Positions 17,017 through 58,546 of a stretch of DNA of 64,000 nucleotides are shown here, one piece after another; the first letter of the stretch is position 1, and each line of letters opens with the position of its first letter. The stretch covers positions 9,877 to 73,876 of the forward strand of contig CASESH010000004.1 in the NCBI GenBank assembly GCA_949290565.1, in the 5' to 3' direction. A program made the translations under genes and the position numbers. The notes beneath the pieces are model-generated. The model was not told the DNA's origin, searched no databases, and saw only the letters and a list, made by a program, of their open reading frames with translations. Source of the stretch: an uncultured Christensenella sp. (GTDB taxonomy: Bacteria; Bacillota; Clostridia; Christensenellales; UBA1242).

Positions 17017-17021
17017 TAATT

Positions 17022-17513: not shown

Positions 17514-17543
17514 TTGACATTATATTATAAAATAAAATATAAT
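17514..17543 (+). promoter_or_regulatory. Candidate sigma-A promoter for the giant-gene pair
   Basis: Perfect TTGACA (17514-17519), an 18-nt spacer, then perfect TATAAT (17538-17543). It lies about 70 nt upstream of ATG 17615, within the 219-nt AT-rich intergenic region after spoIIID. Confidence 0.45.
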
Positions 17544-17614: not shown

Positions 17615-17680
17615 ATGAAAAAATTTATTCTTTTTTTATCAGTTTTTATGATAACATTAGCTACTCTTTTAGTAGGGTGT
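17615..17680 (+). other. Lipoprotein signal peptide of giant protein 1 (lipobox L-V-G-C, Cys22)
   Basis: MKKFILFLSVFMITLATLLVG|C has a positively charged N-region, a hydrophobic core and a lipobox. The Cys codon is at 17678-17680. Confidence 0.8.
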
Positions 17681-20600
17681 GCTAAGGATAAGTATGGGGA
17701 TTTAAAAATAACGGTTACTTCTGTAATTAGTTCAGATGGAGATAGATTATCTCCTAATGAAGAAGATGGTTTTTACTATGTTGAGGTAGGACAAACATTT
17801 ACAATTTCGTGTGATGTTTCATCTTCTACGCCGATTACTAAATATTTGAATTTTGTTAGTGAAAATTCAAGTGTTTTACACTTTGAAAAAACTGCTGAAA
17901 ATTCAAGGAGTGCGGTTTTCACGGCTAACGCTTATACAGTTGATGAGCCGGTTGGTATAAAGATAAGTTCTAAGGAAACATTGACAAATGCTATTACATT
18001 AAATTTTATGATTGTTGCTCCTGTTACTGAAATTACTACTCCTGATAATTTAGTACTAGATTCAAAAAATCCTTTAAATATAAAAGAAAATGTTGTTTTT
18101 AAAAGTAGTTATTTACAAAATAATTCTTTACAAGTCAATAATTCTGAAAAGAAACTTACATACACTTTAAATTCAATTATTGTAAATAATCAAACTTATT
18201 CCTTAGTTTTGCGTGATGATAATTGGTATGACATAATTGGATTTGATGGGGCAACAGTTTTCCCAAATGGTAAAGAGAATGCTTTTACTATTCAAAACGA
18301 CACTTTAATAGTTGCTGATGATGTTTATGGCAATCTCTTATTAGATGTGAAATCTTATAGATATGTTGAAAATATTGAAGAAACTTTTGATGATAGTTTG
18401 ACTGAAATAGATAAAAATAATCTTATTCAAGCAAATAATAAGTTAATTAATAAGAATGTTTCAATAAATATTTTACAACCTCTTAAAATTACTGATTTTA
18501 CTATTTCTTCTGGGCAAATTTCATTTGAAAATATTGGGCAAGATGGTTTAGAAAAAATTAAACTCACATCTATTTTGTACGATAATAGGTCAACTGACAG
18601 TTATAATGTTTCAGGTACAAATTACAATTATAACCTAGAAACGCTTAATATTTTTATTAGTAATTTAGATAAAGATTTTTATACAATTAAGTTTTTTGAT
18701 ATTGATGGAAATCAAATTAAAGAAAATTCCACAGGAGTCTTAAAATTATCTGAAAATAATCCTACACAACTTAATGCAAATAAAGTTGGTACGGAATATG
18801 TTGATATAGTTGTAAGTTATAATACGGCAAATAATATTTCATATTCATTTAGTGAATTGTATAAAGAATATTTGCAAGATAATGGTCTCCAATTAGAGGA
18901 TAATTTAAATAGATTGCAATTTAATGTACAGTCTCTTGCAAATAACATTGAATTGTATATTGACGATAGTTTAACTAGTGTTGATTCAAATGGTGAAGTA
19001 GAAATTTTTGATAAATATGCTGAAACTAAAAATTTAGGTACAAAGTTTGAAATTAAATTTTCAAACATTACAGGTGTTGATAAAGAAAATAAAAAAGTAA
19101 AGGTATATTTGGAAAGTTCAAATGTATTAGATTTGACAAAATATTTGGAAATTTATGATGCTTCAAATGGTTCAACTATTAGCAGAATTACTATTGAAAG
19201 TGAAGTTACAGATGGTAAAACTTATTATTATTTCATAAGAGATTTGGATTTGAATCAGTCTGTGTTCTATATGAAAGCGACTGATGCTGATATTTTAAAT
19301 TCATTTAATATTAGAGTAGAAAATTTATTACAAACTAATATTTTAGATAGAAATAATGAATCAATTTTAAACAATTTAACTAATGCCGAAGACTCTTTTA
19401 GTATTGTTGTTAAAAAGGGAGTTTCCATAGTTGAGGCCAAAATTGTTAATGACCAAAATTTCTATAATATTGCCACTAATAAAGACGCTGGTCAAGATGA
19501 AAATGAACTGTTTTATAGTAAGTTAGTTCTTGATTTGTCTAATAATTCAACCTTAGTTGCTCTTATGTTTGATTATGGTTTGGAGGGAGAATTAAATCTT
19601 TCAAGTTATAATTCAAGTGCTATTAAGATTGAAAAAGTTGACAATGCAAATATTTATTTTAGCGAAAATGCTACTGCTTCTAATTTGTCAATTTCTGCTG
19701 TCTACAAAATTACAGGTTTAAAAGAAATTACTAATTCAAGAGTAACCTTTACTGCGGATAATGGTTATTCTATCAGTTTTATTGTTGATGTTGTAAAACA
19801 AGTTAAACAAGTTAACTACAATTTTTATGAATATTATGATGGTTCAATAACACAAAATTTATATGATGAAGAAAATTATGTCAGTATTAAAAAGGATCAA
19901 TCATTTAATTTTAACTTTATTCCTTCTACTTTAAATGTAACTGAAAGTGCAAGTTCCGGAATTATTAATTATAGTTATTCTGTTGAAAATGAGGAGATTG
20001 CTTATGTTGCTGATAATTCAATTGGTAAAATTACTGCAATAAGTGAAGGGATTTCTACTGTTTCATTATATGTAGAATATTATTCATTTAATTTAGTTAA
20101 TGGTTATAATCAGTGGACAAAAACAGCATTTACAGAATCTTTTGATTTGGAGGTCTTTGTTCCTGCAAAAGACATAAATGTCAATCAAAATACAATAACT
20201 TCTTTTAACTATAATGATTTGCCAAGTGAATATTCTTCAAATTCTCAAATTCAAATTAGCGTTAACATAGATAACAATGCTACAATTTCTAATTTGGAAA
20301 GATATGCTGATAAAATTTCTTTTAGGTTTAAGGACCAAGAAAATTTCTTAAATACTGTTAAAGAAAATAACGAAATTATTGCAAACACAGTTTTAAAAAG
20401 CGACCAGGAAAGTTTAGTTACTTATGTTTATGTTACTGTTGATGAATTTGGTATTGAACATAATTTTGAGTGTAAAATTGAGATTACTAGACCGGTTAAA
20501 ATAAATGAAATTGATTTGAGAATTATTGATGGATTTAATAAACAGGTTAAAATTGATGAAACTAACAATAATGTTGATGGAACTATTAGAGTTGGTAAAG

Positions 20601-23600
20601 ATGAGATTTTAAACGCTATTACTTTGATAAATCCAGAAAATCCTTTAATTGATGAATTTGTTGTTACTATTTATGACGAGTTGATTATTCCTGATGGGGC
20701 CGATTATGATATAATAGAGTTTAACTCAAAAAATGATAATTTAAGGTTTAATTTTAACGCTGATGAGCAAATTGCTGGTGAAGATGGAATCTTTTATGTA
20801 ATTGTAAATGCAAAAGATAGCCTTGAAATTTTCTATGATAGTGACAATCAACCTTATTATGAATTTACAAAGTCTTATGTTTTAAGAGTAATTATTGAAG
20901 ATGGTATAAAAAATTCATATGGTATTTCAAATCAAGAAGAACTTATCGCAATTAATCAAGACCCATCTAAAAATTATATTCTTGAAAATGATATTGTTCT
21001 TAGTGGAGATTTTACTCCTATTCAAAATTTTACAGGTGTTTTTAACGGAAATGGTTTTACTATTTCAAATTTAAATATTAGTTCAACTTCTGCTCATTTA
21101 ATGGACGATATTAATCAAACATATAATGTAGGTTTATTTGCTTCATTAAACAATAAGGCTGATACATATGGTGTTATATATGATTTGAATTTGCAAGTTA
21201 ATAATATTAATTTAACTTCAAATATAAATGCTTTGCAAGTAAATGTTGGTGGATTAGTCGGTAATAATAATGGCTTAATTATTAATAGTTCGGTCAATAT
21301 TAAAAATATTTATGTTAACCTACCAAATGCACAAGTAAATGTTGGTGGATTGGTTGGTTTAAATACAAATAATATTTTTAATTTTGCTTTTGATTCTCTT
21401 TATAATTATGAAACTGATGCCGATTTAATTAGTAAAGAATTTGTGATTTTAAATAATTCTAAGATTAATAATTTAATCTTGGGAAACACCTTATCAGATT
21501 CATCTATTGAGAATGCTATCAGCAAAAAATATGTTAAGGGAAATATTGCTGTTTATGATAGTTTGGCAAGCAGTGCTAATATAGGTGGTATTGTAGGTAG
21601 AAATGACTTTGTAGTTAATGGCTTTTATGGACTTTATGCTAGATATACTTCTACTAACAATAATTATATAGTTACTTACCAAAGTCAATATGTGGATAGT
21701 GATGTTTTAATTAATGTAAACAATGGAGAACTTGTAAATGAGAATTCAACTGTTGGTGGAATTGCAGGTTTGAATAATAAAAATTTGTTTAATCTTTCAT
21801 CTCAGGGTAAGATTGGTAATTTTGATTTTAATACTAATACTTTGGCTTCATCTACCTATAAAAACGTTGGTGGAATTGTTGGTTCTACCCTTGGTAATAT
21901 TCAAAATGTTTTATCTAGCGTTTATGTTAGGGGGCAAGAAAATATCGGTGGTATTGCTGGAAAAGTTGTTGGAAGTTCAAGTTTAGAAACAGTTCTTAAT
22001 AAGAGTAAAGTTGAGTCCTATGATTGTTCAAATGATTTAAGCAATACAATTATTGTTGGTAAAAACAATGTTGGCGGTATAGCAGGTTTTTCTTCATATG
22101 GTTATTTAACAGAAAGCTATTTCTATGGTTATTCAGATAAATTTGACACAAGTTACATAAATAATGGAGATATTTTTGTTGTTAATCAAGATGGCAATGA
22201 ATATGCTGGTGGACTCATTGGTTTTGCAGAACAGAGTAGTATTAACAATTCTTTTGCAATAGCAAATATTAAATCTATTGTTGATAGTTTAAATATTAGA
22301 GGTCTTTCTGGTAGCAGTGTAAAGGCTGGAAATGATGTTTTCTATTTTGGAGTTGTCAATATTAGTGGCAAAAATGATGTAGAAAATATTTTGGGTGCTT
22401 TAAGTTGCGATTATTACTTTGTATTTGATTATAATGATAGTTTTGATAACTTCGTTTTAGTAAAGTCTTATGGAGATACAACAAACGATATTGAAAATGC
22501 AAATATTACTTTTGAATATTTAGATGGCGACAATCTTGTATCTATTTATAAGTATAGTGATATTTTAAGAGATATGCCTGTTGATATTGTTGTTAGTGGA
22601 AATGGCTCTGGTGTCGAAAACGCTAATAATGAGATTGTTTTAGAGTTTAAAACGGGTGATATTAAAAATAATTTCTACGCTTATCAAATTAGCCAAGGTG
22701 AAGAAATTGTAAATGTTTTGTTAGTAAATTTAATCGAGAAAAATTCAATAATGAATATTGGCGATTTGTTTAATATTTCTTCTACGCCAAACTCGATTAG
22801 TCTAAATTTAATAGTTGAAAGTTCAAATAATAAAATTGTTTCTGTTAATGATGATGGTAGTTTGACCTTTAAAAACTATGGTGAAGTTATTTTAACTTTT
22901 ACTGTTAAAGAAAATTTACTTGTTTCTTCGCAGGTTAAAGTTATTATTAACGAAAGTTTTGACAATTTAATGTTGTCAAGTAATCATAATTTCGCAAATT
23001 CTTATTTTGATTCAACTGAGTCTAATGTTAGCAAGGTTAGAACAGGTTTTGAATTCAATATTATAAGCCAACTTTCAAAAAATGTTGGGGGAACTACTTT
23101 TGAAATTGAAAATGCTAATTTCTATGATATTGATTTTAATATAAGTTATAAATCTGATGCTATTGGAACTTATTCTGAGGCTGTTTTAGGTAGAGATTAT
23201 GAAATCGTAAATCAATATAATAATGTTCTTGTTGCAAAATTTATTGTAAATGGTTATTTCAAATTTGACGTTTCTATTTCTTTCCAAGATGAGGATGGAA
23301 ATATTTATAGAATTAAGGATAATTCTTGGGTATTCTATCTATTATCTTTTAGTGGTGCAGTAGATATTTCTTTTGCAGAATCTGAAATTTGGATAAAGAC
23401 AAATGAAACTTATGAGTCTTTAACTGTTAACCTTGGTGTAGATAATGGGGCAGAAAGACCTGAATTAACTATTCAATTACAACTTCCTTCAAATGAGAAA
23501 ATTATTTTAAATGCTACTGTTGCAGATGAAGTTTATACTTTTAATCATAATAATTCTCCATTTATTATTACTGTTTCAAATTTAAATAATTCTATTGAAA

Positions 23601-26600
23601 ATGTTTACTCATATAATCTAAGTATTTCAGTTAAGCAGGAATTTGAAAAAATTGATGAGGCACAAGAATACTTTTTAGTTGTGTATGATAAGGCAGAACT
23701 ATTAATTGATGATGGCGCTGGGGTTCAAATAAATTTAATTCCAGCATTGCTTGAAAAAATTGATTTAGTTCATTATGCTTATACTCAAAAATCTTCAACT
23801 TTAATTAATAATACTAACACTTCAATTGATGGAAATGAGGAAAGTACTTATTTTTACTCTTATTCCCAAAATTCTAGCGATATGATTTATGCCGGGATGG
23901 GTGGATTGCTTGTTATTCAACTTTATCCTTATTATAGTGATATAATCTCTGTCAATATTAAGTCTAGTTTGAATGGAACAGGTGGGGATATTTCCTTTAT
24001 TCAGTTGGCAAAAGTTAGAGATGCTAATAAAAATTCTAGTGGTGGTTATGATGAGTATTTTGTAGTTGCTCCTTCACCTATAAAGAATTTAGATGGAAGT
24101 TATAGTCTTAATTTAGTTTCATCTATGCCTAATACTAGAATAGTCTTTGATGGAAATAATAATGCTTCACTTGAAGGCGATGGTAAATATGCTTTTAATG
24201 AGGAACCTAATTATCCTAATTATGGTATGCTTTTCGTTCGAACTATTGCTCCTACGGATTTGTCTAAAAATGATTCCTTTACAATTACTGTTAGTGTTAC
24301 TTATTCTTCAATTAATGATAATAAACAAATTGTTGAGACTACTAAGGTTGAATCTAAGACTTTGGAAGTTAAAGATATTCCAGGTATGTCTATGACTTTA
24401 AGTCATAATGGGGTAGAAAGAAATGTAATTGCATATACAGGTTCAAACGGAGAATCTGCAAGTCAACCAGATTGGATTGATATTACAACACAAGTTGATA
24501 GCGGTATTAATAGTACTATTTCTTATACTTATCTTTCTAAAAATGATGGAAACGTACAAGGAAGTGACTATGTAAATATAGTTCAAAAAGATTCTAATAA
24601 TTATGAGCTTAGATTAGGTAGTAAAGCAGTTGTAGGTGACATTATTACTCTTACTATGGAAGTTCAATTAATATATGATGATAGAATTGTAATTCAAAAG
24701 GCAAGTACTCAAACTATTACAGTCGTTGATGTCGTTATAGAAAGTTTAAGTTTGTATGGAATAAATGAAAATAATCAATTAATCTTAGGCGTTTCTTCGG
24801 CAATGCAAATTAGGGCTAAGATTAATGGCTTTGGCTTGCAGTCTGCTATTGAAAGTGTGGAACAAGAAATTTCTAGAAGTGTTTATAATTCTAGTGGAAG
24901 CGCTTTATATTGGTTTGCCAAAGATGAAGATAGCCAAAATTACATTACTCTTAATTCTCAAAATATTGCTGATAAGTTGCCATTTAACGTAAAACAATTA
25001 CCAAATTCTATTGATGGTAATTTTGAAGTAAGTGTTAATGGTATTACTTATGTTTTAAATTATAATACTATTTATCTTGAAGGAATGATTAATTCAGGGA
25101 GTGCAAGTTTACTTTTAAATTGTTCTTATGAATATAGAAATGCTGAATTATATTTGATTCCTAATTATTCAAGTGAAACTGCCTTTTCAAATAGTTTTTA
25201 TTTTGACGTGCTTATTGTTAAGGGCGAAGGAGATGAAAACCTTACCGCTATTGAAAATGAAACTGATTTTAAGACAAAAATGTATGAGGGTGGAGATTAT
25301 ATTCTTATGAACGATATCACTCTTACAAATTATGTTCCTATTGAGGCTAATTTCAGTTCATTTGATGGTAATAATAAGATTATTACAATTAATAGTTTTT
25401 ACTACAATGTTCAACAAACGGGAAAAGATAAACAAATTAACTTAGGTTTATTTAGTACTGTTAGCGACCAAACAACAATTAAAAATGTAATTGTTGCTTT
25501 ACCTGATGATAAAAATAGTAATAATAATTATCCTTATATGGATTTATCTACTTATACTTCTATAACTTATGGTGGTATTGCTTCAATTAATAATGGTTTA
25601 ATCACAAATAGTGAAGTTATTACAATTGACAAAATTAAAGATAATAGTACAAATGTTGGGTATTCGTTTAATATAAAAACAAGTCCAACAGCAACTGTTA
25701 ACGTTGGTTTAGTGGTTGGTATTAATAATGGAATTATCACAAATTCGAGAGTAGGTAGAGAAACTGTTCAAGTTTTACAAAGTTTAGATAATGATTCTGC
25801 GATTGTCAATTTAAAAAATTTGGATTCAGTTTTAGATAAGACGGCAATTTATGTTAATGGAGCAGGCAATGTCGCAGGTTTTGTTGCTGTTAATAATGGA
25901 ACTATTTCATCAAGTTATGCTAAGAATATTCAGTTAGAAACTTTCATTGATGAAGGTGGTCATGAGAATTTAAAAACTGCTGGATTCGTAATTGAAAATA
26001 ATGGTTATATTTATGGTTCTTACGCCTCAGGCTGGGAGGAAAATACAAGAGATGCAGTTGTAAGTGACACTAGTTTGATAATTGATTCGGAAAATAGAAA
26101 ACTTGGCGGTGGTATATTTACAAATAGTACTATTGCAGGTTTTGTTCATCAGAATAATAATTATATAGAAGACAGTTATTCTAATATAAATATAAGTGGT
26201 TCATATGTTTTTGCTGCTAAAACTTCAAAAATTCTAAATGAAAACTCTCAAAATACCACAGGTTTCATAAGTAGTGCTGGTGGCGCAGGTTTTGTTTACA
26301 AGGCAAGTGAAAAATCCTATATTACAACTTCTTATTCTCTTTCCAAAATTAAAGCAGATAACACACTAGGTTTGTTTGCAGGTAATTTAAATTATTCTAG
26401 CGAAGATGATAATGAACTTGGAACAATGTCTGATTGTTACGCTCTTAAAGAAATTGGAGAATCTTTTGTCGTATATGATGTGGATGGTGTTACGGTTTTA
26501 TATGACCAATCTGAGAGTTCAGTAGAGGGTGATTACAATACTGACATCAATCAATTTGCAGATGAAAATAGTTTTAATAATTTTAGTTTTGATACTAATG

Positions 26601-29600
26601 TTGAAGATTTTTCATCGTTTGATGGTATTAGTTCTGGTGGCGTTTGGGCAATGTATAGAGGAGAAAACAATAGCGCTTATCCAGAATTAATTAGTGCAAA
26701 TACTATTGCTATTTCTTGTAGAGTTATTAACTTTGATAAAGATGGTAATGAATATTATACTTACGTTGATGGCTATGATTATGGTTCTATAAATAATCCT
26801 TATTTAATCTCAAATGCTAGTGAATATAATGATCTTTTCTCAGATTATAATTATGGAGAAGGCTTTAATCAAAATATTGCTTCTAAATTTACTAAGAGCA
26901 TAAGACTTATCAATCACATTAATTTTGCAAATCTTCCTGTGTATTCAACTTCGGTAGAATATACTTCAATAGTTGGGGAAGAAACTACAATTTTTGATGG
27001 AAATTATTTGTCAATGTATAATATTTTCCTAAGTGATTCTAATGAAGTTAAAGATTCGTTTGGTTTGTTTAGAAATGTTTATAATGCTGGAATTAAGAAT
27101 TTAAGTCTTGGAATTTCTAGCATTATTGCTGGTAACACAACTTCTGTTGGTGCTTTGGCCGGTGTTATTGTTGATAGTAATATTTCAAATATTTCACTCT
27201 TTGCTTGCTCAACCACGACTGATGTAAATGGAGAAATAAGAGGAAATAACTATGTCGGTGCTCTCGCTGGTATTATTACTTCTAGTGATAATGGTGAATT
27301 CTATTTTGTTTCTAGAATTAAGTCTAATCTCTTGGTTAAAGGTAGTACCTCTGATACGGGAATTTCTTCTTCAATTAAGAACTCATTTGATATTTGGGAA
27401 GATATAAAACCTATTACAGTTGCAAGTGGAACATCATATATTGGTGGAAATTTAAGACTTAATGAATTAAATAAATCAAACTACTATGCCGGTGGTATTG
27501 CTGGGGTAATTGATTTAAGACAAAGACAAGAACTTTCTGAAACTGTTATTATTTCTGATTACAATGTTTCAAATATTCACGTTGGTGCATTCTATCAAAA
27601 TACAAGTGTTAATACAACTTCAAATAGTTATGGCGATGTTGGGGTTATGTCTGTTTATGCTGGTGGCTTATTTGGTTATATCGGAGAGGAAACTTTCTTA
27701 ACTAAATCTCAGTTTATTGTTAGTCAAAACAGTTCAATATCTGCAAAAGAAATTGCTGGTGGTATTGCTGGGGTTAATTTTGGTATGATTTCTAAGAGTT
27801 ATGTTTCATATAACCCTAAAACAATGAGAGTTATTGATAGTGATTTTATTAATTATGTCAATGGTGCTAATTATGTTTCTCAGCCTAATACTTCGCTTTT
27901 CTCAAAAGATATTGAAAATTATCAACCAAAATACATTGGTGGTATCGTTGGTTTGAATTCAGGCGATGATACAACCGGTTCTGGTAGTATTATTGATTGT
28001 TACAATAGGGTAGATGTTAAGAACCCTTATTCTCTTGGTGTTGGCGGTATTGTTGGTGCTAGTTATATTGGTGAAATTTCTAACGTTTACACAACTGCAA
28101 GTTTGTATGGTAACTTTGAATTAAGAAAACTTTCTAATGGAACTACTGTTGAAGCAGATGACGTTTATGTTGGAGCAATTATTGGAAAGATAATGAAAGA
28201 TTCTGAAAACTATTTCTCATCTTCAATAACTGCTGAACAAAAAGAACTGAATTTATTTAATATTGTTGCTGTTAATCTTTGGGATATAAATGATTTTGAA
28301 AGTATTTTCAATTTTGTAAACACAAAAGATGGCTATGTCGGTGCTCTTTATGGTTTCTATGAAAATGGTGCAGATAGTACAGGTATTGTTAGAATTAGTC
28401 AAAGTTCAAATATATACGTTCAAAATTATATTTTGAATGGTTATACCAATCAGTATTTAAGTACTATTGATAGTAGTGAAGATTTTAACAAGTATGATTA
28501 TAATAGTTATGAAACATCTGGTAAAACTACGTATATTCAACTTTGGGGGTCTGCCTATGAAACAAGGACAGAGGGCTCAACTGCTCCTACTCCTAGCGAT
28601 GACCCTGACAATATTGATGATTATTTGTCTCAATATTTCTCTCAAAATAAAGATGCTAGAATTGAACCTCATGATTTTAGAATTACCTTTAAGGATAATG
28701 TTATTGAAACAGGTACTATTTCTGCTAGTGCTAGAATTTTAAAAGAAACTTATTTTAATGAATTAAATTGGTTACCTGTAACTTGGGACCATAGTATAGT
28801 AAATTTATTACCTTTACTTTCTTATGGTTATATGTCTTCTATTATTGAAATAAGAACTGCCGAAGATTTCTTTACTGAACTAAGTGCTAAGGATAATGGA
28901 GATAAAACATTTATTGTAATGAATGATATTGATTTTAGTGACTATCCAAGCATTGAACCAATTATGCAAGAATTTAACGGTACTTTATTAGGTATGGATA
29001 TTTCTTATGAGATAAATGGTATAAGATATACGAGAAAACCTATACTATTTAATCTTAACTTAGTAAACGATGCGGTTGATAAGAGTGGATATGCTATATT
29101 CAATAATGCTGTAAATGCTACTTTTGCAGATTTAAATTTTGTTATAAATAATTATGATGTTCAATTTACAAAAGATGATGCTACAACCCAGGCTGGAATC
29201 CTTGTTGCTTCTGCTGAAAGTACTACTTTTAGAAATATTAATATTTATAATTCATTGATAGATGAGGCTGTAATTCAGTCTTTAAGTACTACGAATTTAA
29301 GTGGTACATATTTAGTTGGAATGGGAATTCAATATGAAAATTTAGTTGCAGTTGGTTATAGTCCAAAGTCTTTCTTAGTTACTTCCGATAACTATGGTAA
29401 TACTTATAATTACGAATATTCAACTAATGAGAATGTTTATAATTTAGTTAAGGAAATTATTGTTGAAGGGTCATCAACTGCCGATAAAGTAATTTTAGTC
29501 ACTAGTGAAAACAACATTAAAACTAATGCAAGTATTTTTGGTGCAATTGTAGGTAATGTTAATGGTGAAGTTAATGTTGAAAATAGTAGTTCAAATATTG

Positions 29601-41518: not shown

Positions 41519-41572
41519 AAGGAATTTGGGTGGATTCCTTAAAATGGTGGAAAATAAAAAGGGTATTGAAAA

Positions 41573-41641
41573 ATGAAGAAAATTATAAATTTTATTTTAT
41601 TTATTTCTTTGTCTATTTTAACTTTTGTTTTTGTAGGCTGT
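41573..41641 (+). other. Lipoprotein signal peptide of giant protein 2 (lipobox F-V-G-C, Cys23)
   Basis: MKKIINFILFISLSILTFVFVG|C. The Cys codon TGT is at 41639-41641. Confidence 0.8.
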
Positions 41642-44600: not shown

Positions 44601-47600
44601 ACAAATCTATTTTAACAAAAGATTTGTTTATGATGAATATTGATGGAAACTACTACTATGTACTAGAAGATGAAAGTTCAAATAATTATATAAATTCTTT
44701 AATTACGAATAATAATATAAACTATACATTTAATGTTGAAATCGCAGGTTTATTTTTTGGACAAATAGTTACAATTTTTATGCCGGAAGATAAAATTAAT
44801 TCACTTAACGATTATCAAGATTGGAACAATTATAGTTATACACAAGTTGATATTACACAAGATGATTTTATAAGCGGTTTATTTTATTATAATGATAATG
44901 ATAAATTTGTTCTAGAAGATGAATTTAATGTAAATGCTCAATATTTTGTTAGAAGTGTTGATTTTGATAAAATTATTAATTTATTTAAGGAAACATTTTT
45001 TATACAGTTTGTCATTTCAGATGGCGAGAATATTCCTTTTTATGTAACTTCTTTTAGTGACTTACAAGAGATTAATACAAATTCTAATCTTGCAAATAAA
45101 AATTTTATTTTAGCAAAAGATATTTCTTTGCAAGATATTAATTGGCAACCAATAGGAAATTATTATGTTGTTCAATTAGACCAAACAAGTTTTGAACCAG
45201 ATGTTTATTATATTAAACAAGACAGTAACTATGTAATTGCTAACGAGTATGATAGTGAAGAAGTTTATTATTCTTATGGATTTAATGGTTCTCTTTCTGG
45301 CAAATATTCTATACTAAGTGCTGATGGTAGTGTTATAGAAAATTATTATAAAATTACTAATATTAAATCAAATCTTACTATTAACAATACTTATGTAGGT
45401 TTGTTTACCAACTTAGGACAAGACTGTGTAATTAGTGATTTAATTCTTGAATTTGATGCTTTCCAATTAAGCGATAAACAACTTACAAGAGATTTGATTT
45501 TTGGTGGAATTGCTGCTGTTAATTATGGTAAATTAGAAAACGTTGAAATTAAATTTAATGAACTTAGATTAACCTCAAATTACAACATCACTTTTGGAGG
45601 AGTGGTTGGTCTTAATTATGGTTATATTTTAAATGTAAATAGTAACAAATCTCATATTTTAGATGGAAGTATTTATGTTACTTCTAATAATGCTGATGCT
45701 AGTGTTATCGTTGGTGGTTATGTTGGTAGAAATTATGGAACTATACAGGGTATATATACAGATGAAAACGATATACAATTCTCATTTGTTGACCAAACAA
45801 GTAACTTAAATTTAAATATAAATGTTGAAACTAAAAATATTGGTGACAATCCAACTGACAAACAAATGATAGGTGGTGTTGCAGGCTTTTCTACCGGAAT
45901 TATTAAAGGTATGGTAGTTGAAGGTAATATTGTTGCATCTAATACAAATAATGTCGGTGGACTTGTTGGATTTTTAACAACTTCTAATCAAGATGAACAA
46001 AATTTAAATTATTCAATTCAAAATAGTTATTCGTCCCTTTATGTTACAGGTTACTCATATGTTGGTGGAGCAATTGGCAGAGTTGAGGGGTTTGAATTAA
46101 ACAATGTCAATATATATAACATTTCGAGTGAAAATTACGTTACTTTGTATCAATCAAGAACCTACATTAAAGGAAATAATTTTGTAGGTGGGCTGATTGG
46201 TTATTCAAATTATGCTAAAATTGAATATAGTTATGTCGTGAGTTATTATGATTGTAATTTATTAGATTTAAATTCAAATAAAGAAAGTGTAAACTATGAT
46301 ATTGTTGGCAATGAATACGTTTCTAGTTTTATTGCTTATAGTTTGAATAATATTATTAATAAGAGTGCTTCTTATATAAATATTTTTGGAAAGGCTTATA
46401 CTAGTGCTTTTATTTCGTTTAATTCGGATTCTCAAATTGATAGTATTTTCTATATAGGTTCTATATATTGTTCAACTATTCAAGGAGAAGAATCATTTAA
46501 TAACAATTCTTATTATGTTATTTATGACATAGATAAAAATAGCATAAGTCAGTCTTATTCAAAAGATGTTGTTGGCGATTTTTGGGCTGTAAATGATGAT
46601 ATAAATAATGGGTTACCATATTTAGTGTTCAAAGATAGCAAAAAAATTCTTTTTGCTACCGGTAAAATTAAAGTTGATGCTTTTGTAAAAGAAGTTGAGT
46701 TGTCATATACAAATTACATAAAAGTTAATGACCACACCTTGTTCTTGTTTTATAATTATGATAGCACTAACGAATATACAATAGATGTTTTGGATTTACT
46801 TAATACAATTCATATACAAGATTTTATTGATATTGATGTTAATATTTTAACAGACAAAACTTCAAGGTTTAATTTGTCTAGCACTAATGATAAAGTTATT
46901 TCAATTTTAGATAATGGTTATTTAAAGATTAATGGTATTGGTAGGGTTACTTTAACAATCTCATCAAAATTAAATTCTAATTATAGTGTTTCATTGGAAG
47001 TTAATGTCATATATGGTATTAGTGATATTGAATTATACGCCGATACAATGTTACTTGATTATGAAAAAGAACAAGAAGTTTTAATATTGAAGAAATCTGT
47101 TAATCAAAATTTAGATTTAGATATTTCTTATAATAGAAATATACAAAATAATGATTATAATTTACAACCAAACAATAATCAAATTGGTGTAAGATTTATT
47201 ATTAAAAATGATGATAATTTAAAGAATATTTTAAACCAAGTTTCCCAAACATCAGGAAGCGTTGATATTAATAGTCTGCTTAAAATGAATGCCGATAATT
47301 TATGGATTTTGGACCAAGATTATTATTATGTAGATATTACAAATTTCAATTTGTATATAAATCCAACTTTAAGTTTTGAAGGCGAGTTATCTATTTATTA
47401 TATTCCTTATATTGTTGAAAGTTACAATAATAAAAATTTTCTAACTTTGATTAGTAGTTTTGAAAATCCTAAATACTTTAATATTCAAATTATTGATGGT
47501 GCAAAAGAAATTATTTTTGAAAACAGTGTAGGTTCAACTGTTCAAATAAACCAAATACAAAATTTTGTTTTAACAGTTACAATAATGACAGACTATGAAG

Positions 47601-50600
47601 ATGAGGAAATTGTAACTAATTTGGAAATTCTAAAAGCCCAAGATGAAAACTTTGGATGTAGAGAAGGCAATTTAGTTAAAAATTATAATGTTGATGGAAA
47701 TATTATTTCTGTTTCAAAAACTTATACTTTTTGGTACCAAGACAAAGTTAATTCCATTTTGGAAGCAAAAGAATATAAAATTAGTTTTTGGTCAAATTCA
47801 AGATTTTCGGAAACAACTAAAAAAGAACTTGTTTTGAGAATTGAGGGGTATGATAAATTAGATTATATTAGTGCTCAAATTTATTCTGATGGAGAAAGTG
47901 ATTTTCCTCACGAACAAAGTATAAATAAAATAGTTTATAATAATGGTAAAAGCGCAATCTTAGCCTTAGAAGTTTATCCTTATTTTGTTGATTATTCTAA
48001 AATTAGGATTTCTTATACAACAAGTTCTGCAATGTCTTTATCTATTACTCAGTTAAAATATAACATACAGGGTACGGGAGATAAGTTTACTATTAATACT
48101 GATTCAGGAGCATATATTGACCAAAATAATAATTTGATTATTGAAAAATCTTCAGCACAAGATACATATCAATTTAATACTAATGGAATTTATTCTTATA
48201 GTAAATCATATTTCTTTGCTTTGTTAGTTTCAAGTTCGGTGCCTAATAATACAGTTTATAATTTAAAGTTTGAGTTTATAAATAGATTAGGACAAATAAT
48301 TAAGGAACAATCAATTTCTTTCTCTACAATGACTAAATCGTTGTTAAACCTTTCGTTCAATCAAGAACTTAAACAAAACAATTCTTTATATGTAAATTCA
48401 AATAATGAATATTACTATTTACCTTTTAATACAAAACATGAGATATTTGTAGATACAATAGTAAAGTATGACTATATTAATTGGGAAGTTTCTTCAACTG
48501 ATTATGACTTGAATGCGGTTGAAAAAGAGGCTTTGACACCTGTATTTGAAAATAATAAGTGGTATGTTAATGTTATGAACTTTGGAACATCTGCTGTTAA
48601 GACTAATACTGATTTAATTGGAAAGACTATTAATTTAACTGCAACCATTGATGATAGTTATCCTGTTGACCCTTGTACTATAACTTTTGTTGTAACTCTT
48701 TTTACTATTACTGATATTAGCGTTTTGTATGAAGAAGATGGTTATTTATTATTAGAAAATAATACTACTAATCCTCTTAAAGTTAATGTTGATGTCGAGT
48801 ATGATTTAGGATTAACAAGTAGTTCTAATAATTGGTACACAACTTGGTATAATACTAATAAAGATAATAAAGAAGATAGTTTATACAACAATATTGTTAA
48901 TGCTGGTTACAATGTAGAGCAATCAATTTTAGATTATATTAGTTTCATAGAAGAAAAAATAGCAAAAACTAATTATAGACCGATAGAGAGCGGTAATAAA
49001 CAATCTGGTATATTTATTTATAAAAGTAACTTAGATGGAAACGATGAGTATTTAACAGCCGGGAAATTGTATAATAATGGTGCGTTTGAAGTCGAAAATT
49101 ATAACAATTTTATTGCTTTAAGTGGACTAAAAGATAATGTAAATACAAATCTTAAATTGTTAGTTTATTTAAGTTATTCTGTGAATTCAGATAATGCAAC
49201 ATCAAGTGGACTTGCTAACGTGGAAAATTATAACGTAACTTTCTCACAAAATAGAAATCCTTTTGTTTTTGAAAAAGATTTTACTGTAAACTTTTATAAC
49301 TCTATTAATTATCAAAACTCAATTCCTGTTTCAAATGCAGAAGAATTTTTGGGTATGGCTGATGCAAATAATGATGAGTCTTATAGATTAATTTGTGATA
49401 TTTATTTGGAAAATTATTCTCCAATAAATGCTAATATGTATAATTTTGATGGTAATGGATTTACAATTTACATAACTAGTTTTGATACAGTCTTAGAAGA
49501 AGATGAAACACTAGTTCTTGGTTTGTTTAATAATATTAGTGAAGATACGTTAATTTCAAATTTAAATGTTTACTATACTAGAAATGTAAATATACAAAAT
49601 AATACCATTACAAATGAAACTAATATCAAACCTGTGGGAGATGAAATAAAAGTTAACATTAATACTCCAAATACAATTTATTTTGGTGGAATGGCAAGAA
49701 TAAATAATGGTATAATCACAAATTGTAAGCTTAGTGGGAATATAAATGTTTCAGTTTTAGAAAACTATTATGCTAATGTAAACGTAGGTGGCTTTGTTTA
49801 TTCTAATAGTGAAACAGGTTACATTACTTACTCAAAAGTTGAAGGTTTTAATATCACTTGTTATGGTTCCTCAGGAGGATTTGTTGCAGAAAATAGAGGA
49901 AAAATAGTTTCTTGTTCTTTTAGTCAAAGTAGTTTAAAAAATCTTTCGGTTGGTAATGTCGGTGCATTTGTTCTAAATAACTACGCAGAAATTTATGAGT
50001 CATTTACTGAGGGCAGTAGATTAGAAAGCGATGTTGATATTAGAAATAAGGGGCAAGGGATTTCTTCAAATGGTGGTAAAGTTGGAGGATTTGCATATTA
50101 TAATAATTCTATTATAAATGATTGTTACTCTAATATTTCTCTTTCTTCTTCTCTTGATACGGCAGGTTTTGTTTACCTGGATTCTGCTTCTAGCGTAATT
50201 TCTAGATGTTATTCAATTTGCTATAATGAGGTTAGTTTAACTTCTTCTGGTGGATATTCTTCTAATGCTTTTCCATTTGTTGGACCTGCAAGTGAGTTCT
50301 TACCAAAAGTAGTTGTAAATGGGAATTTAATAAACTGTTATTATCTAATTGGAAATGAGTCTGATTGGAGAAGTCAAATTTTCTATGATAGTCAAACTAG
50401 TGAGGTGGCAACAACAAATCCAAATAAAAAAGCTACCGGTTTATCTTTTGATGATTTCGCAACTCATAAGAGTTTTATTAATTATGATTTGTCCTTAGTT
50501 TACTCGACTGATTTATATCCTAATACTATTTCCTTTAATTATGTTGATGGTTACACTTGGGTTATTATTGAAGGTAAACCTGTTTTGGCTTCAAGTCTTG

Positions 50601-53600
50601 TGGAGACTTTTAGTCAACAAAGGTATATTGGAAAAGTAAAAAACTATTCTGCTAATGAACTAAGATTTTATTCTTCAAATGACTACAATCTTGTAATTGG
50701 TACTCCTTCTCAAATTGGAGTTGGACAAAATGCAATAACTAGAGTTAATTATTATGCTGACCAGTCCCAACAAGATTTAGTTTTTACAACTCATACTAGT
50801 GATTACTTTAAAACTATTACATTTACTTTCTATTCTAGAAATAATTTTGAAGAATTATCTATTGTTTGCGATATAAAATTTGATGAAGAAAATCAGAAGA
50901 ATTATTTGTCAGCCAGGAACGCTGAGTATGGGAATGAAGTTAAGAAAATTCTTGATGTGATGGTTGAAGAAAATGGCGTCATTACAAATGTGGATTCTAA
51001 TTTTAGAGCAAATGATACCATAGTAATTTCATTTAATCAGGATAAAATGTTAATTGAAAACATTAATTATAAGGAATTGTTAAGTGCTTCATATAATTAT
51101 GCTAATTATATTCCTAATATTTCAAATTTACCTGGAAGTAGAACAAATCCTGAGATAATTTATGATTTGACTTCTTTTGAAAGTAAATTATCTTCAAATA
51201 CCGAAGGTAAATTTTATAGATTAGTTAGCGATATTGATTTGGAAAAAAAGTTTGTTTCTACAATTGGGACGAGTTTTAAAGGAGTTTTACAGGGCAACTA
51301 TATGGAAATAGATAACTTATCTATACCATATTTAAGTAATGTTGTAACAGATAATGTTGATAAACAATCCTTTGGTCTTTTTGCTGAAATTTCGGTTGCA
51401 AATGAAAGGTCTTTTAATACTGTAATTTCAAACTTACAACTTAACATAAATGAAGTGATTTCATCTATTCATAACTATGTTGGCGGACTTGCCGGAAAGA
51501 TAGATTCAAGACAGGAAAATGGAATAAGTAATTCTACTCAAAGAATATTCTTAAACAACATTACCATTAATGGTGTTGAAGGTAGTAATAAAATTGTTCA
51601 GGGTAGAAATGCAGTTGGCGGACTCGCTGGTATTGCAATAGGGAATGTTATTATAAAAAATATAACCTCAAATATTAATGTAAATTCAAGTTATGATGAG
51701 TCAAAAAATTCCGTTAAAAATATGTTGTACATTTCCTATTCAATGCAGACAAACGACCAAGTTCAAGAACAAGAAAAATCTCAAAATTACAAAAATATTT
51801 CTTACGCCGGTGGCGTAATTGGTATTTTTGATGCAGTCAAGGTTGTTGACCCTGCAACTCAAAGAAATTATAATGCTTCTAACATTTATGTAATGGGAAA
51901 TAATAAATATACCGGAAATATTGTTGGTATGGCTTTTGGACTTGTTGGTTCTCAGTCAATAGTTAATTATGTTAATGTTGAGGTTTATAGTAGTGATTCT
52001 ACTAAGATTAATGCTTCAAGTTATGGTGGTGGAATAATTGGGGAAAATAGAGGAGTAGTTATATCATCATCAGTATTCTATGCTGATGAGAATAATGAAA
52101 ATAACAATATTGCCATTTCAACATATCAAAGTTACAACTTATTTAATTCCCAGTACAACTCAATGGCTATTGGTGGTTTAGTTGGTTTAAATAATGGCGG
52201 TATCATATACAATTCAATTTCAAGCATTTTTGTTAGAAATATTAACTCTACTGTTGCAGGTGGTGCAGTTGGTAGAATGATTGAAGGTGTTTTACAAAAT
52301 GTTATTGCTACCGGTTCTGTTATAGGTAAATCTATTATTGGTGGTTTAATTGGGACATTGAATGATATTGATATTTTAGTTGATAACAACTATAATTCTT
52401 TATCTCTTATAAATATTAATGATTTAATTTATGAAGAAATAACAGGAAGTAGTCTAGGTTTGAAGACAAAGGCTTTAATTGCAAATTGTGTTGCTGGAAA
52501 TAATTGGCTTTCCTATGATTATAATTATTATGAAAATTTGTTAGTTATAGACAAAACTGCTGTAAGTGGATTCATAGGCTTAATTTCGATGTATTCATCA
52601 ACAGATGATTTTAATGAAAGTAGTTTAGATAAAATTGAATTTAGGTCACATAGTTACTATTCTAATACCCTATATTCAAATTATAATAGTTATACAAACG
52701 CTGATAAATATTTAAAGGCAAGTTATGTTTCTAAGGATTTAGATTATGTAAATACTAATATGATATACAAGCCTCTTATATTGAAAGATAGTTCGGGTTT
52801 ACAAACTGTATTTCCTTATTCAACTAGTGAATTTTATTATGATAGTATTTCAACTAATGTTTATTATGAAATAAAGGGTGAAAAGAATCCGAATTATAAA
52901 ATTTCTACTACTGTTGAGGGTGATTATTATGCTAGAAAAATTTATTCTATAAAAGTTGTAAATCCTGTATCATTACAAAATCAAGATAGTTTTTATAAAT
53001 TAATTGATATGTCTCTATGGAATACTGAATATCAATATAGAGATTATACTTGGTTTATAAATAGATTTGGTAAGATTTACAAAAATATAGAAGGTCAATA
53101 TGTTGAAATTAAAAACGAAAAAGAGTTTAATGATTTCTATGTAGCAAATGATGATATTTATCCAAATGTTTACTTCATTTCAAACATTAATCTAGATAAA
53201 CTTTCTTTTGAACAGGAATATTTATATTCTACAAACGATATTATCTTGTATGGTGAAAGCGATGAAGTTTTAATTGAATTTGATACACTTGAACAACTAA
53301 AAGCACAAACAAATGTTTATCTTAATGGAATTAATTTTGAGATAGATTTCACTAATGCAAGTGCATCCGATGAAAGTTTTGTTGAAGATAGTGTTTGTGA
53401 ATATGTTTTTGACATTAAGTTTAATTTACCAAATTTAGGATATGTAAGCAATATTAGTATCAAAGTAAGAAGAAATGTTGGCGTGGGTTATGAATATTAC
53501 ACCATTGATAGCGTGAAACTTACAAATGTTTATGAAAATATTGATGAAATTTCTTCTATTTCAATGGATGCCCAAGATGATGGTAATGTGATAAATCAAT

Positions 53601-58507: not shown

Positions 58508-58511
58508 AATA

Positions 58512-58546
58512 AAAGAGTTCAGTATTTTAACTGAACTCTTTTTTTA
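58512..58546 (+). terminator. Rho-independent terminator closing the giant-gene pair
   Basis: It begins 7 nt after the stop at 58507. Perfect 9-bp stem agagttcag (58514-58522) / ctgaactct (58531-58539) with an 8-nt loop, followed by T7 (58540-58546). Confidence 0.75.

What the first reader, a model, noticed from the sequence alone, without database searches (positions are those of the whole stretch)
17615..52600. The two giants are collinear module by module, implying duplication of an already giant ancestor
Seen in the sequence, the equivalent landmarks fall at nearly the same residue numbers.

| Landmark | Giant 1 | Giant 2 |
|---|---|---|
| Lipobox Cys | Cys22 | Cys23 |
| First module N-cap | aa ~1,103 (nt 20921) | aa ~1,157 (nt 45041) |
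| Second module | aa ~2,545 (nt 25247) | aa ~2,584 (nt 49322) |
| Third module | aa ~3,062 (nt 26798) | aa ~3,194 (nt 51151) |

The second module in both proteins is the unusual GFV-variant type, which is a shared derived character. After the third module the two proteins diverge: giant 1 has the mega-module, whereas giant 2 has three short, well-capped modules.

Inference: an already giant gene underwent tandem duplication, followed by differential expansion of the distal part. Despite this, protein identity appears low by eye, so the pair is old and both copies have stayed open.
Basis: partly seen in the sequence, partly recalled or inferred. Interest (0 to 1): 0.65.

Follow-up and report, generated by a model that had tools for sequence, protein, structure and literature searches.

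The report
Ancient duplicated giant surface lipoprotein pair
Two adjacent genes encode giant membrane-anchored surface proteins (7,967 and 5,644 residues) that are old copies of one already-giant ancestor, and the pair sits in the same place next to rpoB in at least a dozen related gut Clostridia species.

Summary
G1 (17615-41518) and G2 (41573-58507) both start with a lipobox. Their first ~3,650 residues are collinear: N region, module a, a ~900-aa spacer, module b (GFV type), then module c. The spacer also aligns on the diagonal, not only the repeat modules (z=8; hhalign 85-97%). Modules a, b and c are reciprocal best matches by position.

After ~aa 3,650 the diagonal is lost. G2 modules d, e and f are each other's closest relatives, which indicates internal amplification. 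G1 has six modules, not "three plus a mega-module".

An exhaustive HMMER search found full-length orthologues of each copy: about 7,700-7,960 aa and about 5,580-5,810 aa. They form two clades (bootstrap 100 and 97). They are 36-57% identical within a clade and ~20% between clades.

In 12 species-representative genomes (Christensenellales-like Clostridia MAGs) a G1-type C-terminus lies directly upstream of the G2-type gene. rpoB follows in nine of these and in two further loci whose upstream flank is too short to read. The duplication is therefore ancient. G2-type orthologues are under purifying selection (omega 0.11-0.14).

Structure models show capped right-handed beta-helices separated by strings of Ig-like domains. 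The likely function, inferred only, is a pair of long surface fibrils or adhesins. This is an unnamed family of a known kind. Interest is moderate.

The parts
17514..17543 (+). Sigma-70-type promoter-like site upstream of G1 (TTGACA, 18-nt spacer, TATAAT; 12 of 12 matches)
17615..41518 (+). G1, a giant lipoprotein gene of 7,967 aa (G1-type, 'T1')
   Evidence: The ORF is. Full-length orthologues P0002, P0005, P0008 and P0011 are 30-37% identical, each as a single HSP or a few collinear HSPs over the length.
17615..17680 (+). G1 signal peptide with lipobox LLVGC (Cys22)
   Evidence: Sequence. The C-x(1-3)-[KR]-Y-x-[DN]-[LM] motif after the Cys is shared with G2 and relatives.
17681..20908 (+). 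G1 N region (aa 23-1098), non-helix and weakly homologous to the G2 N region
   Evidence: SW z=5.1 local and 2.6 global. hhalign probability is 97 for slice 1 and 88 for slice 751, with none for slices 251-750.
20909..22534 (+). G1 module a, a capped GLUG beta-helix (aa 1099-1640)
   Evidence: Cap HMM; Pfam GLUG motif at aa 1527-1552; reciprocal best match to G2 module a.
22535..25234 (+). G1 spacer I1 (aa 1641-2540), a string of Ig-like beta-sandwich domains
   Evidence: z=8.0 against G2 I1. AF2 model has pLDDT 75 and is all-beta. Foldseek matches cadherin, PrgB Ig-like, RTX adhesin extender and SbsC arrays.
25235..26674 (+). G1 module b, the 'GFV-variant' beta-helix (aa 2541-3020)
   Evidence: Sequence. 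SW 268 against G2 module b. hhalign probability 100. AF2 pTM 0.81 with beta-helix hits including IgA1 protease domains.
26792..28534 (+). G1 module c (aa 3060-3640), with a GNY-type cap
28835..30814 (+). G1 module d (aa ~3741-4400), with no unique partner in G2
31172..31924 (+).
   Evidence: hhalign probability 93 to the G2 module b slice; sequence.
32357..40294 (+). G1 'mega-module' (aa ~4915-7560), with about 42 turn motifs and an interruption near aa 6000-6250
40295..41515 (+). G1 C-terminal region (aa 7561-7967), non-helix, with no counterpart in G2
   Evidence: The homologous C-termini lie upstream of G2-type genes in relatives.
41573..58507 (+). G2, a giant lipoprotein gene of 5,644 aa (G2-type, 'T2'), starting 54 nt after the G1 stop
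   Evidence: The ORF is. Full-length orthologues P0003, P0004, P0007, P0010 and P0012-14 are 32-39% identical.
41573..41641 (+). G2 signal peptide with lipobox VFVGC (Cys23)
45020..46522 (+). G2 module a (aa 1150-1650), whose cap carries a ~40-aa insertion
46523..49312 (+). G2 spacer I1 (aa 1651-2580), homologous to G1 I1
49313..50452 (+). G2 module b, the 'GFV-variant' (aa 2581-2960)
51146..52522 (+). G2 module c (aa 3192-3650), marking the end of the collinear core
52523..53848 (+). G2-specific non-helix segment I3 (aa 3651-4092), with no counterpart in G1
53849..58012 (+). G2 distal modules d (cap at aa 4093), e (4711) and f (5111), which are mutually closest relatives
   Evidence: The caps are conserved in orthologues P0004 and P0014.
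58511..58542 (+). Intrinsic-terminator-like hairpin (13 pairs plus a T run) directly after the G2 stop; none lies between G1 and G2

Best explanation
G1 and G2 are ancient paralogues. They descend from a single lipoprotein gene that was already giant, with at least an N region, beta-helix module a, a ~900-aa Ig-like spacer, module b (GFV type) and module c, totalling about 3,300-3,650 aa.

**Shown.**
- The duplication predates the divergence of a whole group of Christensenellales-like gut Clostridia.
- Each copy has its own orthologous lineage with a conserved length and module map.
- The order G1-type then G2-type is kept in 12 species representatives, with rpoB visible downstream in 9 of them.
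- The distal halves are not alignable between the two copies. G2 carries three short modules that arose by internal duplication before the G2-type lineages diverged. G1 carries module d, a small b-type module and a ~2,650-aa beta-helix region.

**Inferred.**
- The two genes form one transcription unit of about 41 kb. There is a consensus promoter before G1, a 54-nt gap without a terminator, and a terminator after G2.
- The products are lipid-anchored at Cys22 and Cys23 to the outer face of the cytoplasmic membrane.
- They project as long fibrils in which rigid capped beta-helix modules (candidate ligand or glycan binding surfaces) alternate with Ig-like stalk segments. They would act as a complementary pair of surface adhesin or coat proteins.
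For: **Collinearity that includes non-repeat sequence.**

**Positional reciprocal best matches for modules a, b and c, and within-protein clustering of G2 d, e and f.**

**Two orthologous groups.**
- 81 HMMER hits were found. The top 15 include 12 full-length giants in two length classes, with the match at the same residue range.
- The two groups align over their full length, 30-39% identical to G1 or G2 respectively and ~26% to the other copy.
- The neighbour-joining tree gives clade bootstraps of 100 and 97. Identity is 36-57% within a clade and 18-23% between clades.

**Conserved synteny.**
- In L006-L011, L013 and L015-L019 the ORF ending 130-440 nt (up to ~750 nt in L018) upstream of the G2-type gene matches the extreme C-terminus of G1-type proteins: 99% in L006, 97% in L008, 70% in L010, and 22-38% in the others.
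- rpoB follows the G2-type gene at 82-88% identity in 11 loci.

**The core is shared by all relatives.**
- Module b is directly followed by module c in every locus.
- Cap positions are conserved across types.

**Purifying selection.**
- Among G2-type orthologues, omega is 0.11-0.14 at dS 0.2-1.2.
- For G1 strain comparisons, omega is 0.26-0.39, based on 5-10 SNPs.

**No recent DNA repeats.**

**Operon signals.**

**Folds.**
- The spacer model has pLDDT 75 and Foldseek matches tandem Ig or cadherin-like arrays at E down to 8e-12.
- The module b model has pTM 0.81, and all top hits are right-handed beta-helices. These include IgA1-protease-associated domains 3n6z (probability 0.99) and 7uvl (0.97).
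- Pfam finds the GLUG motif in G1.
Against: - The N region gives only partial signal. Slices 251-750 are undetectable and global z is only 2.6.
- Deep nodes of the family tree are unresolved, with bootstrap 20-37. The order of duplication and distal gain or loss is therefore open.
- A third group (L023, L030, L040) clusters with G2-type at 100% but occupies the first position after M23-ACP-SpoIIID, where G1 sits in the window. The history therefore involves more than one simple tandem duplication.
- For several loci the upstream ORF matches G1-type C-termini only weakly (22-29% identity, 46-76 bits).
- Foldseek E-values for the beta-helix model are weak (0.01-0.1).
- Lipidation, surface exposure, co-transcription and any binding function are untested.
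- Trees are neighbour-joining on distances, not maximum likelihood.
Confidence: 0.8

Rival explanations
1. Convergent architecture. The two giants were assembled independently from a shared toolkit of beta-helix modules and Ig-like domains, and the similar landmark positions are coincidental.
For: Plain BLAST between G1 and G2 finds only beta-helix module matches, many of them off-diagonal. N-region slices 251-750 show no similarity.
Against: - Non-repeat spacer chunks find their best match in all of G2 on the diagonal.
- Spacer against spacer gives z=8, while non-corresponding segments give z~0.
- Spacer slices have unique hhalign diagonals.
- Module matches are reciprocal by position.
- The N-terminal motif directly after the lipobox is shared.
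Confidence: 0.03
2. A recent duplication followed by very fast divergence, or relaxed selection with one copy decaying, so that the low identity does not reflect age.
For: Surface proteins evolve fast. Identity between the copies is only ~20% in the spacer-plus-b region. dS in the G2-type gene exceeds that of the neighbouring rpoB.
Against: - Each copy has its own orthologues in many species, with conserved lengths.
- The tandem arrangement is conserved.
- Omega is 0.11-0.14.
- Both ORFs are intact over 24 and 17 kb in a 25-30% GC genome.
- No DNA-level repeats remain.
Confidence: 0.03
3. The second copy is a xenologue or the product of a more complex history. Possibilities include insertion of a divergent homologue from another Clostridia lineage next to the resident gene, or several rounds of duplication, loss and reordering, rather than one in-situ tandem duplication.
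For: - L023, L030 and L040 group with G2-type (bootstrap 100) yet sit in the G1 position behind M23-ACP-SpoIIID, and are themselves followed by another giant lipoprotein gene.
- In L030 the two neighbours share a 99% identical 5' end of ~392 aa. This shows ongoing recombination between tandem copies.
- Deep nodes of the tree are unresolved.
Against: - Adjacency, the same strand and the shared flanks (SpoIIID side and rpoB side) are most simply explained by tandem duplication.
- GC content and codon composition of G1 and G2 are alike.
- No mobile-element genes were seen in the window flanks that were scanned.
Confidence: 0.14

Closest known systems
Giant1-5 gene cluster of Apilactobacillus kunkeei (PMC12863079)
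   Same: Both have consecutive chromosomal genes for extracellular proteins of 3,000-8,000 aa with signal peptides, beta-solenoid domains and long repetitive stalks. Both show paralogy among neighbours and recombination between them. In both cases the genes take up a large share of a small genome.
   Different: [quoted passage not shown] Here there are 6 capped GLUG-type beta-helix modules per protein, interleaved with Ig-like spacers, and an N-terminal lipobox anchor.
- No sequence relationship was tested or seen.
- Here the pair is conserved across many species-level lineages at a fixed locus next to rpoB.
GLUG-motif beta-helix domains, as in IgA1 proteases of Streptococcus/Gemella (PDB 6xjb, 7uvl, 7uvk) and BACOVA_03286 (3n6z); Pfam PF07581
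   Same: The turn motif is the same (xGG[LIV][VA]G...N.G.I.n). The Pfam GLUG hit in G1 is above the gathering score. The predicted right-handed beta-helix has these structures among its best matches.
   Different: No M26 or other peptidase domain was detected. Modules are repeated six times per protein and have their own N-cap. The module b variant replaces GGL/GGI with (A/G)GFV. G2 does not reach Pfam's GLUG threshold.
Fibrillar adhesins of Gram-positive and Gram-negative bacteria (RTX adhesins such as MpIBP and the Aeromonas extender regions, PrgB, antigen I/II)
   Same: The spacers are long strings of Ig-like domains that match these stalks by fold. The proteins are very long and rich in N, S, T and G.
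   Different: - The anchor is a lipobox, not LPXTG/sortase or type 1 secretion retention.
- The stalk domains are highly diverged from each other, not near-identical tandem repeats.
- The putative binding modules are distributed along the protein rather than placed at the tip.
Giant genes surveyed by West-Roberts et al. (bioRxiv 10.1101/2023.11.21.568195)
   Same: Both are giant bacterial ORFs from metagenomes with beta-helix-rich regions and a surmised surface or attachment role. That paper mentions Clostridia giants from mammalian guts.
   Different: The Clostridia giants described there are 10,000-30,000 aa with RCC1, Listeria-Bacteroides repeat, YG-repeat or dockerin content. The Omnitrophota giants have many TM segments and SecA-like domains. 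None of these features is present here.

Membership tests
   Spacer I1 gives z=8.0. Chunk hits fall on the diagonal. hhalign probability is 85-97 for slices 1, 751, 1751 and 2001, with no off-diagonal hits.
   Modules a, b and c are reciprocal best matches across the two proteins. G2 modules d, e and f cluster within G2. G1 modules d and e are ambiguous. The criterion is therefore met for the proximal three modules only.
   Two clades with bootstrap 100 and 97. Alignments run over the full length.
   A G1-type C-terminus lies directly upstream of the G2-type gene in 12 species-representative loci. rpoB lies downstream in 11 G2-type loci, 9 of which are among those 12.
   Short complete relatives end after module c, but the deep tree nodes are unresolved. 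P0015 (3,782 aa) may be a truncated fragment.
Bacterial lipoprotein (Lgt/LspA substrate) | N-terminal basic n-region, hydrophobic h-region, and a lipobox [LVIF][ASTVI][GAS]C | tested here: met
   G1 reads MKKFILFLSVFMITLATLLVGC and G2 reads MKKIINFILFISLSILTFVFVGC. The lipobox is conserved in all orthologues and relatives.
Bacterial lipoprotein (Lgt/LspA substrate) | Actual diacylglycerol modification and signal peptidase II cleavage | not testable with these tools
   This needs biochemistry.
GLUG-motif beta-helix domain (Pfam PF07581) | Pfam GLUG model above the gathering score | tested here: met
   G1 scores 26.2 bits against a cut-off of 20.5. G2 has no hit at E<=0.01, although the same turn motif is present 38 times by regular expression.
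GLUG-motif beta-helix domain (Pfam PF07581) | Right-handed parallel beta-helix fold | tested here: met
   The AF2 model of module b has pTM 0.81. All top Foldseek hits are beta-helices, including 3n6z (probability 0.99) and 7uvl (0.97), but E-values are only 0.01-0.1.
IgA1 protease / ZmpA-type M26 metallopeptidase | M26 catalytic domain | tested here: not met
   No peptidase family was found in Pfam or NCBIfam scans of G1, or in the Pfam scan of G2. The PDB sequence searches of G1 aa 1-4990 and G2 aa 1-5000 gave no hit either.
Fibrillar adhesin | Stalk of tandem Ig-like domains | tested here: met
   The AF2 model of G1 aa 1660-2300 is all-beta and multi-domain, with pLDDT 75. Foldseek matches cadherin, PrgB, RTX extender and SbsC arrays.
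Fibrillar adhesin | Demonstrated adhesive domain and ligand | not testable with these tools
   There is no experimental data, and no known adhesin domain was found by Pfam.
Fibrillar adhesin | Cell-wall (LPXTG) or T1SS-type anchoring | tested here: not met
   The anchor is an N-terminal lipobox. The C-termini show no LPXTG followed by a hydrophobic tail, and Pfam finds nothing there.

The most novel reading that the evidence does not exclude
The G1-type/G2-type pair may not be an accessory adhesin locus. It could be a core, order-wide envelope structure of Christensenellales-like gut bacteria. In this reading, two co-transcribed lipid-anchored fibrils with strictly conserved lengths (about 7,700-7,970 and 5,580-5,810 aa) and module maps act together, for example as a two-tier surface coat or a spacer that sets a defined distance to partner cells or host mucus. 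That would explain why both giant copies have been kept intact at the rpoB locus since before these lineages diverged.
Probability: 0.25. Interest if true: 0.7.

Novelty: new member of a known kind. Interest (0 to 1): 0.5.

Why it matters
Giant bacterial surface proteins are usually seen as fast-changing accessory genes. Here a 41-kb two-gene unit is a stable, syntenic, purifying-selected feature across many species of a gut lineage allied to Christensenellaceae, a family linked to host health.

The family has no name in the source databases, no Pfam or NCBIfam model beyond the GLUG motif, and no match to any PDB chain sequence (PDB searches covered G1 aa 1-4990 and G2 aa 1-5000). The result gives three things:

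- A clear, dated example of duplication of an already giant gene (at least 3,300 aa), followed by independent remodelling of the distal half.
- A domain map that makes the proteins tractable: capped beta-helix modules a to f and Ig-like spacers.
- Orthologue sets for building family models.

It also flags a practical point for annotation pipelines. Word-index homology search missed the whole family.

Tried and rejected
- **Whole-protein BLASTP of G1 against G2** found only beta-helix modules, many off-diagonal, and could not settle collinearity. Self-BLAST of whole proteins returns only the identity HSP, so sequences had to be chunked.
- **The search for homologous proteins** failed on size or time. 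It then returned nothing for G1 aa 1-1100 and for the spacer. The proteins are nevertheless in the collection.
- **The first search of protein representatives** was rejected because the profile exceeded 1,200 positions.
- **PDB sequence searches** gave no hits. **NCBIfam** gave none for G1. **Pfam on the spacers and termini at E<=1** gave nothing meaningful.
The pattern finally used cannot match the G1-type module b cap, so G1-type genes were seen only through their C-termini.
- **dN/dS between G1 and G2** was not attempted. At ~20-30% amino-acid identity, synonymous sites are saturated, so orthologue and strain comparisons were used instead.
- **A cap-only comparison** did not recover the 1a-2a pairing, because the G2 module a cap carries an insertion.
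- **Literature searches** for GLUG, giant proteins and Christensenella adhesins found nothing on this family.
- **Considered and rejected:** Mollicutes origin (the ORFs are open under table 11, and SpoIIID is present) and a mobile-element or phage context (the flanks are housekeeping genes).

Full report
**1. What is in the window**

All long ORFs are on the + strand, and GC content is 24-35%. Two giant ORFs lie side by side:

| Gene | Coordinates | Length |
|---|---|---|
| G1 | 17615..41518 | 7,967 aa |
| G2 | 41573..58507 | 5,644 aa |

Upstream are housekeeping genes: peptidyl-tRNA hydrolase, Mfd, a lysyl-phosphatidylglycerol-synthase-like protein, an M23 peptidase, an acyl carrier protein and SpoIIID. 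Downstream is rpoB. The locus is therefore chromosomal and from a Firmicutes-type organism.

The same locus occurs at 99.8-99.9% DNA identity in a few ENA and Logan metagenome assemblies.

The scans suggest a bicistronic unit of about 41 kb (inference from consensus scans only):
- A 12/12 sigma-70 consensus site lies at 17514-17543.
- No terminator-like hairpin lies in the 54-nt G1-G2 gap.
- A 13-bp hairpin with a T run lies at 58511-58542, directly after G2.

**2. Check of the observation**

- Both proteins begin with a lipoprotein signal peptide: LLVGC22 in G1 and VFVGC23 in G2.
A cap HMM places module starts at G1 1099, 2541 and 3060 and at G2 1150, 2581 and 3192.
- The second module in both proteins uses (A/G)GFV turns instead of GG(L/I)(V/A)G.
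- The third module in both proteins has a GNY rather than a GNG cap motif.
- Turn motifs are confined to the modules: 69 in G1, 38 in G2, and none in the intervening regions.

**3. Is the collinearity more than shared repeats?**

Plain BLAST sees only module-to-module hits. More sensitive tests show a true diagonal:

- *Chunk search.* For 200-aa chunks of G1 searched against the whole of G2, the best local alignment lies within -22 to +134 residues of the diagonal. This holds for chunks starting at 1, 401, 1201-1401, 1601, 2001, 2101, 2201, 2401-2701 and 3101-3501. Several of these lie in the non-repetitive spacer. No chunk beyond ~3630 does so.
- *Semi-global alignment.* The first ~3,700 residues score 1117, against 300-352 for shuffled or reversed G2.
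- *Segment comparison.* The spacer I1 (G1 1641-2540 against G2 1675-2580) gives z=8.0. The N regions give z=2.6 globally and 5.1 locally. All non-corresponding segment pairs give z between -1.5 and 2.7.
- *Profile-profile dot plot.* With orthologue alignments (see section 5), hhalign gives unique diagonal hits for non-helix slices: slice 1 (97%), 751 (88%), 1751 (85%) and 2001 (93%). Module b slices reach 100% (scores 210 and 157) and module c slices reach 96-97%. Slices 251 and 501 are undetectable, and slice 2251 is weak.
- *After ~aa 3,500-3,650.* Only generic helix-to-helix cross-hits remain. G2 3651-4092, the G2 C-terminus, and G1 4751-5000, ~6001-6250 and 7501-7967 have no counterpart.

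**4. Module relationships**

Full-module Smith-Waterman scores give reciprocal best pairs by position:

| Pair | Score | Next-best partner |
|---|---|---|
| 1a-2a | 297 | 226 |
| 1b-2b | 268 | 200 |
| 1c-2c | 298 | 216 |

- G2 modules d, e and f are each other's best matches (207-274; caps 175-190, 30-42% identical). They therefore arose by internal duplication.
  - a capped module d (cap ~3745);
  - a small b-type module at ~4520-4770 (hhalign 93% to G2 module b);
  - the mega-module (cap ~4921, extending to ~7560), which is interrupted near aa 6000-6250.
- G1 modules d and e have no unique partner in G2.
- No DNA-level repeats longer than ~57 nt remain. All of these duplications are old.

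**5. Relatives**

*Protein search.* An exhaustive HMMER search used a G1+G2 profile of the spacer plus module b. It found 81 proteins. The top 15 include 12 full-length giants in two length classes, the rest being fragments or ambiguous:
- 7,689-7,963 aa;
- 5,583-5,805 aa.

In the full-length hits the match lies at the same residue range, ~1,840-3,000.

*Full-length BLAST.*
- P0002, P0005, P0008 and P0011 align with G1 over their length at 30-37% identity (P0002 and P0005 as a single HSP), and with G2 at ~26%, modules only.
- P0003, P0004, P0007, P0010 and P0012-14 align with G2 as a single HSP over the whole length at 32-39% identity.

*Tree.* A neighbour-joining tree of the spacer-plus-b region gives two clades with bootstrap 100 and 97. 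Identity is 36-57% within clades and 18-23% between them. Cap positions are conserved within each type, including the d, e and f caps of G2-type proteins.

*Genome scan.* A scan of GTDB species representatives with the G2-type module b returned 48 loci. They come from MAGs labelled Clostridia, Christensenella sp., Christensenellales or Eubacteriales, mostly from gut samples.

In 16 of these loci the gene is G2-type:
- 12 have complete ORFs of 5,591-5,812 codons.
- In 12 loci, the ORF that ends just upstream matches the extreme C-terminus of G1-type proteins. The match is 99%, 97% and 70% identity where the same or a near species was in the protein set, and 22-38% otherwise.
- In 11 loci the next gene is rpoB.

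The tandem order G1-type, G2-type, rpoB is therefore ancestral to this group.

*Naming.* None of the cluster members carries a name in the source databases.

**6. Wider family**

Other loci hold more distant members, all with module b directly followed by module c:

| Group | Loci | Length (aa) |
|---|---|---|
| T3b | L021 and others | at least 5,600-6,070 |
| T3a | L023, L030, L040 | 5,505-5,861 |
| T4 | L032, L039, L048 | 3,327-3,655 |

- **T4** genes are complete. They end 110-270 residues after module c and sit directly upstream of rpoB-rpoC.
- **T3a** groups with G2-type (bootstrap 100). However, it lies behind M23-ACP-SpoIIID, where G1 lies in the window, and is followed by another giant lipoprotein gene.
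- **L030**: the two neighbours share a 99% identical first ~392 residues and then diverge. This points to gene conversion or an assembly artefact.
- Deep nodes are unresolved, with bootstrap 20-37.

All members share the N-a-spacer-b-c core. The common ancestor therefore already had at least ~3,300 aa. Whether the distal parts were gained independently or lost in T4 is open. The family history includes more than one duplication.

**7. Selection**

- Nei-Gojobori estimates between G2-type orthologues give omega 0.11-0.14 at dS 0.2-1.2, and 0.25 at saturation. The adjacent rpoB gives 0.04-0.06.
- Strain-level SNPs in the first 9 kb of G1 are few (5-10), with omega 0.26-0.39.
- Both genes are therefore maintained by purifying selection.
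- dN/dS between G1 and G2 themselves is not meaningful, because synonymous sites are saturated.

**8. What the proteins are**

- Pfam recognises only the GLUG motif, in G1 module a. NCBIfam (run on G1) and the PDB sequence searches (G1 aa 1-4990, G2 aa 1-5000) find nothing.
- *Spacer.* An AF2 model of G1 1660-2300, built with five orthologues, has mean pLDDT 75. It is all-beta with about six sandwich domains. Foldseek matches tandem Ig or cadherin-like arrays: protocadherins, PrgB Ig-like domains, RTX-adhesin extenders, S-layer SbsC and antigen I/II, with E down to 8e-12.
- *Module b.* An AF2 model with 11 sequences has pTM 0.81 and the strand pattern of a parallel beta-helix. All top Foldseek hits are right-handed beta-helices: pectate lyases, tailspikes, and the beta-helix domains of IgA1 proteases and BACOVA_03286 (probability 0.97-0.99). 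E-values are weak, at 0.01-0.1.
- No catalytic domain was detected.

**9. Mechanism (inference)**

Each protein is probably exported by Sec and lipidated on Cys22 or Cys23. It would be held on the outer face of the cytoplasmic membrane and extend outward as a fibril. In that fibril, rigid capped beta-helices alternate with Ig-like stalk segments. The helices are the likely interaction surfaces, by analogy with beta-solenoid binding domains of SRRPs and the A. kunkeei giants (PMC12863079).

Co-transcription, conserved pairing and conserved lengths suggest that the two act together. None of this is tested.

**10. Comparison and novelty**

| Closest analogue | Main differences |
|---|---|
| Tandem Giant1-5 genes of A. 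kunkeei (PMC12863079) | anchor type, multiple interleaved helices, deep conservation of the pair here |
| GLUG beta-helix domains of IgA1 proteases | no peptidase domain here |
| Fibrillar adhesins | lipobox anchor, diverged stalk domains, binding modules spread along the protein |

The giant Clostridia proteins mentioned by West-Roberts et al. have a different domain content.

The finding is a new, unnamed family within a known kind of protein. It is also a clean, well-supported case of ancient duplication of an already giant gene.

Noticed in passing
window 31172-31924 (G1 aa ~4520-4770): A small sixth beta-helix module of the b ('GFV') type lies between module d and the mega-module. hhalign gives 93% probability to G2 module b.
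   Followed up: partly
window ~35600-36360 (G1 aa ~6000-6250): The 'mega-module' is not continuous. One 250-aa slice has almost no turn motifs and no profile match to any G2 slice, so the region is at least bipartite.
   Followed up: no
L030:2690-3865 and L030:19554-20729: Two consecutive giant lipoprotein genes in a relative (CAKVNM010000003.1) share a 99% identical first ~392 residues and then diverge abruptly. This is either gene conversion between tandem paralogues or an assembly artefact.
   Followed up: partly
L032:2324-13288, L039:2681-13219, L048:2867-12847: These are complete short family members (3,327-3,655 aa) that end just after module c and lie directly upstream of rpoB-rpoC. They are candidates for the ancestral core architecture. 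Each is preceded by a 770-889-aa ORF with no similarity to the giants.
   Followed up: partly
L023, L030, L040 (first 3 kb) compared with window 16121-17395: The M23 peptidase-ACP-SpoIIID upstream synteny of G1 is shared by loci whose giant clusters with G2-type rather than G1-type. Gene order or copy history therefore differs between lineages.
   Followed up: partly
L016/L019 and L009/L011 (G2-type gene compared with adjacent rpoB): Synonymous divergence of the giant gene is about 4-fold (0.215 vs 0.053) and 2-fold (1.11 vs 0.54) that of the neighbouring rpoB fragment. Possible causes are codon-usage constraint on rpoB or recombination in the giant gene.
   Followed up: no
window 17615-25234 (queries): The word-indexed homology search returned no hit for two G1 segments. 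G1, G2 and their orthologues are nevertheless in the same collection, and an exhaustive HMMER search found 81 relatives. The N/S/I-rich composition probably saturates the candidate list.
   Followed up: partly
window 3252-5329 and 12410-14125: Two tandem Rce1-like CAAX protease genes lie upstream, next to M1 and M14 peptidase genes. A 571-aa ORF between mfd and the LPG-synthase-like gene has no Pfam match.
   Followed up: no
window 32000-40000: GC content rises from ~0.25 to ~0.33 along G1, and GC skew reaches 0.37 in the mega-module. This is consistent with the glycine-rich (GGN) turn motifs.
   Followed up: no
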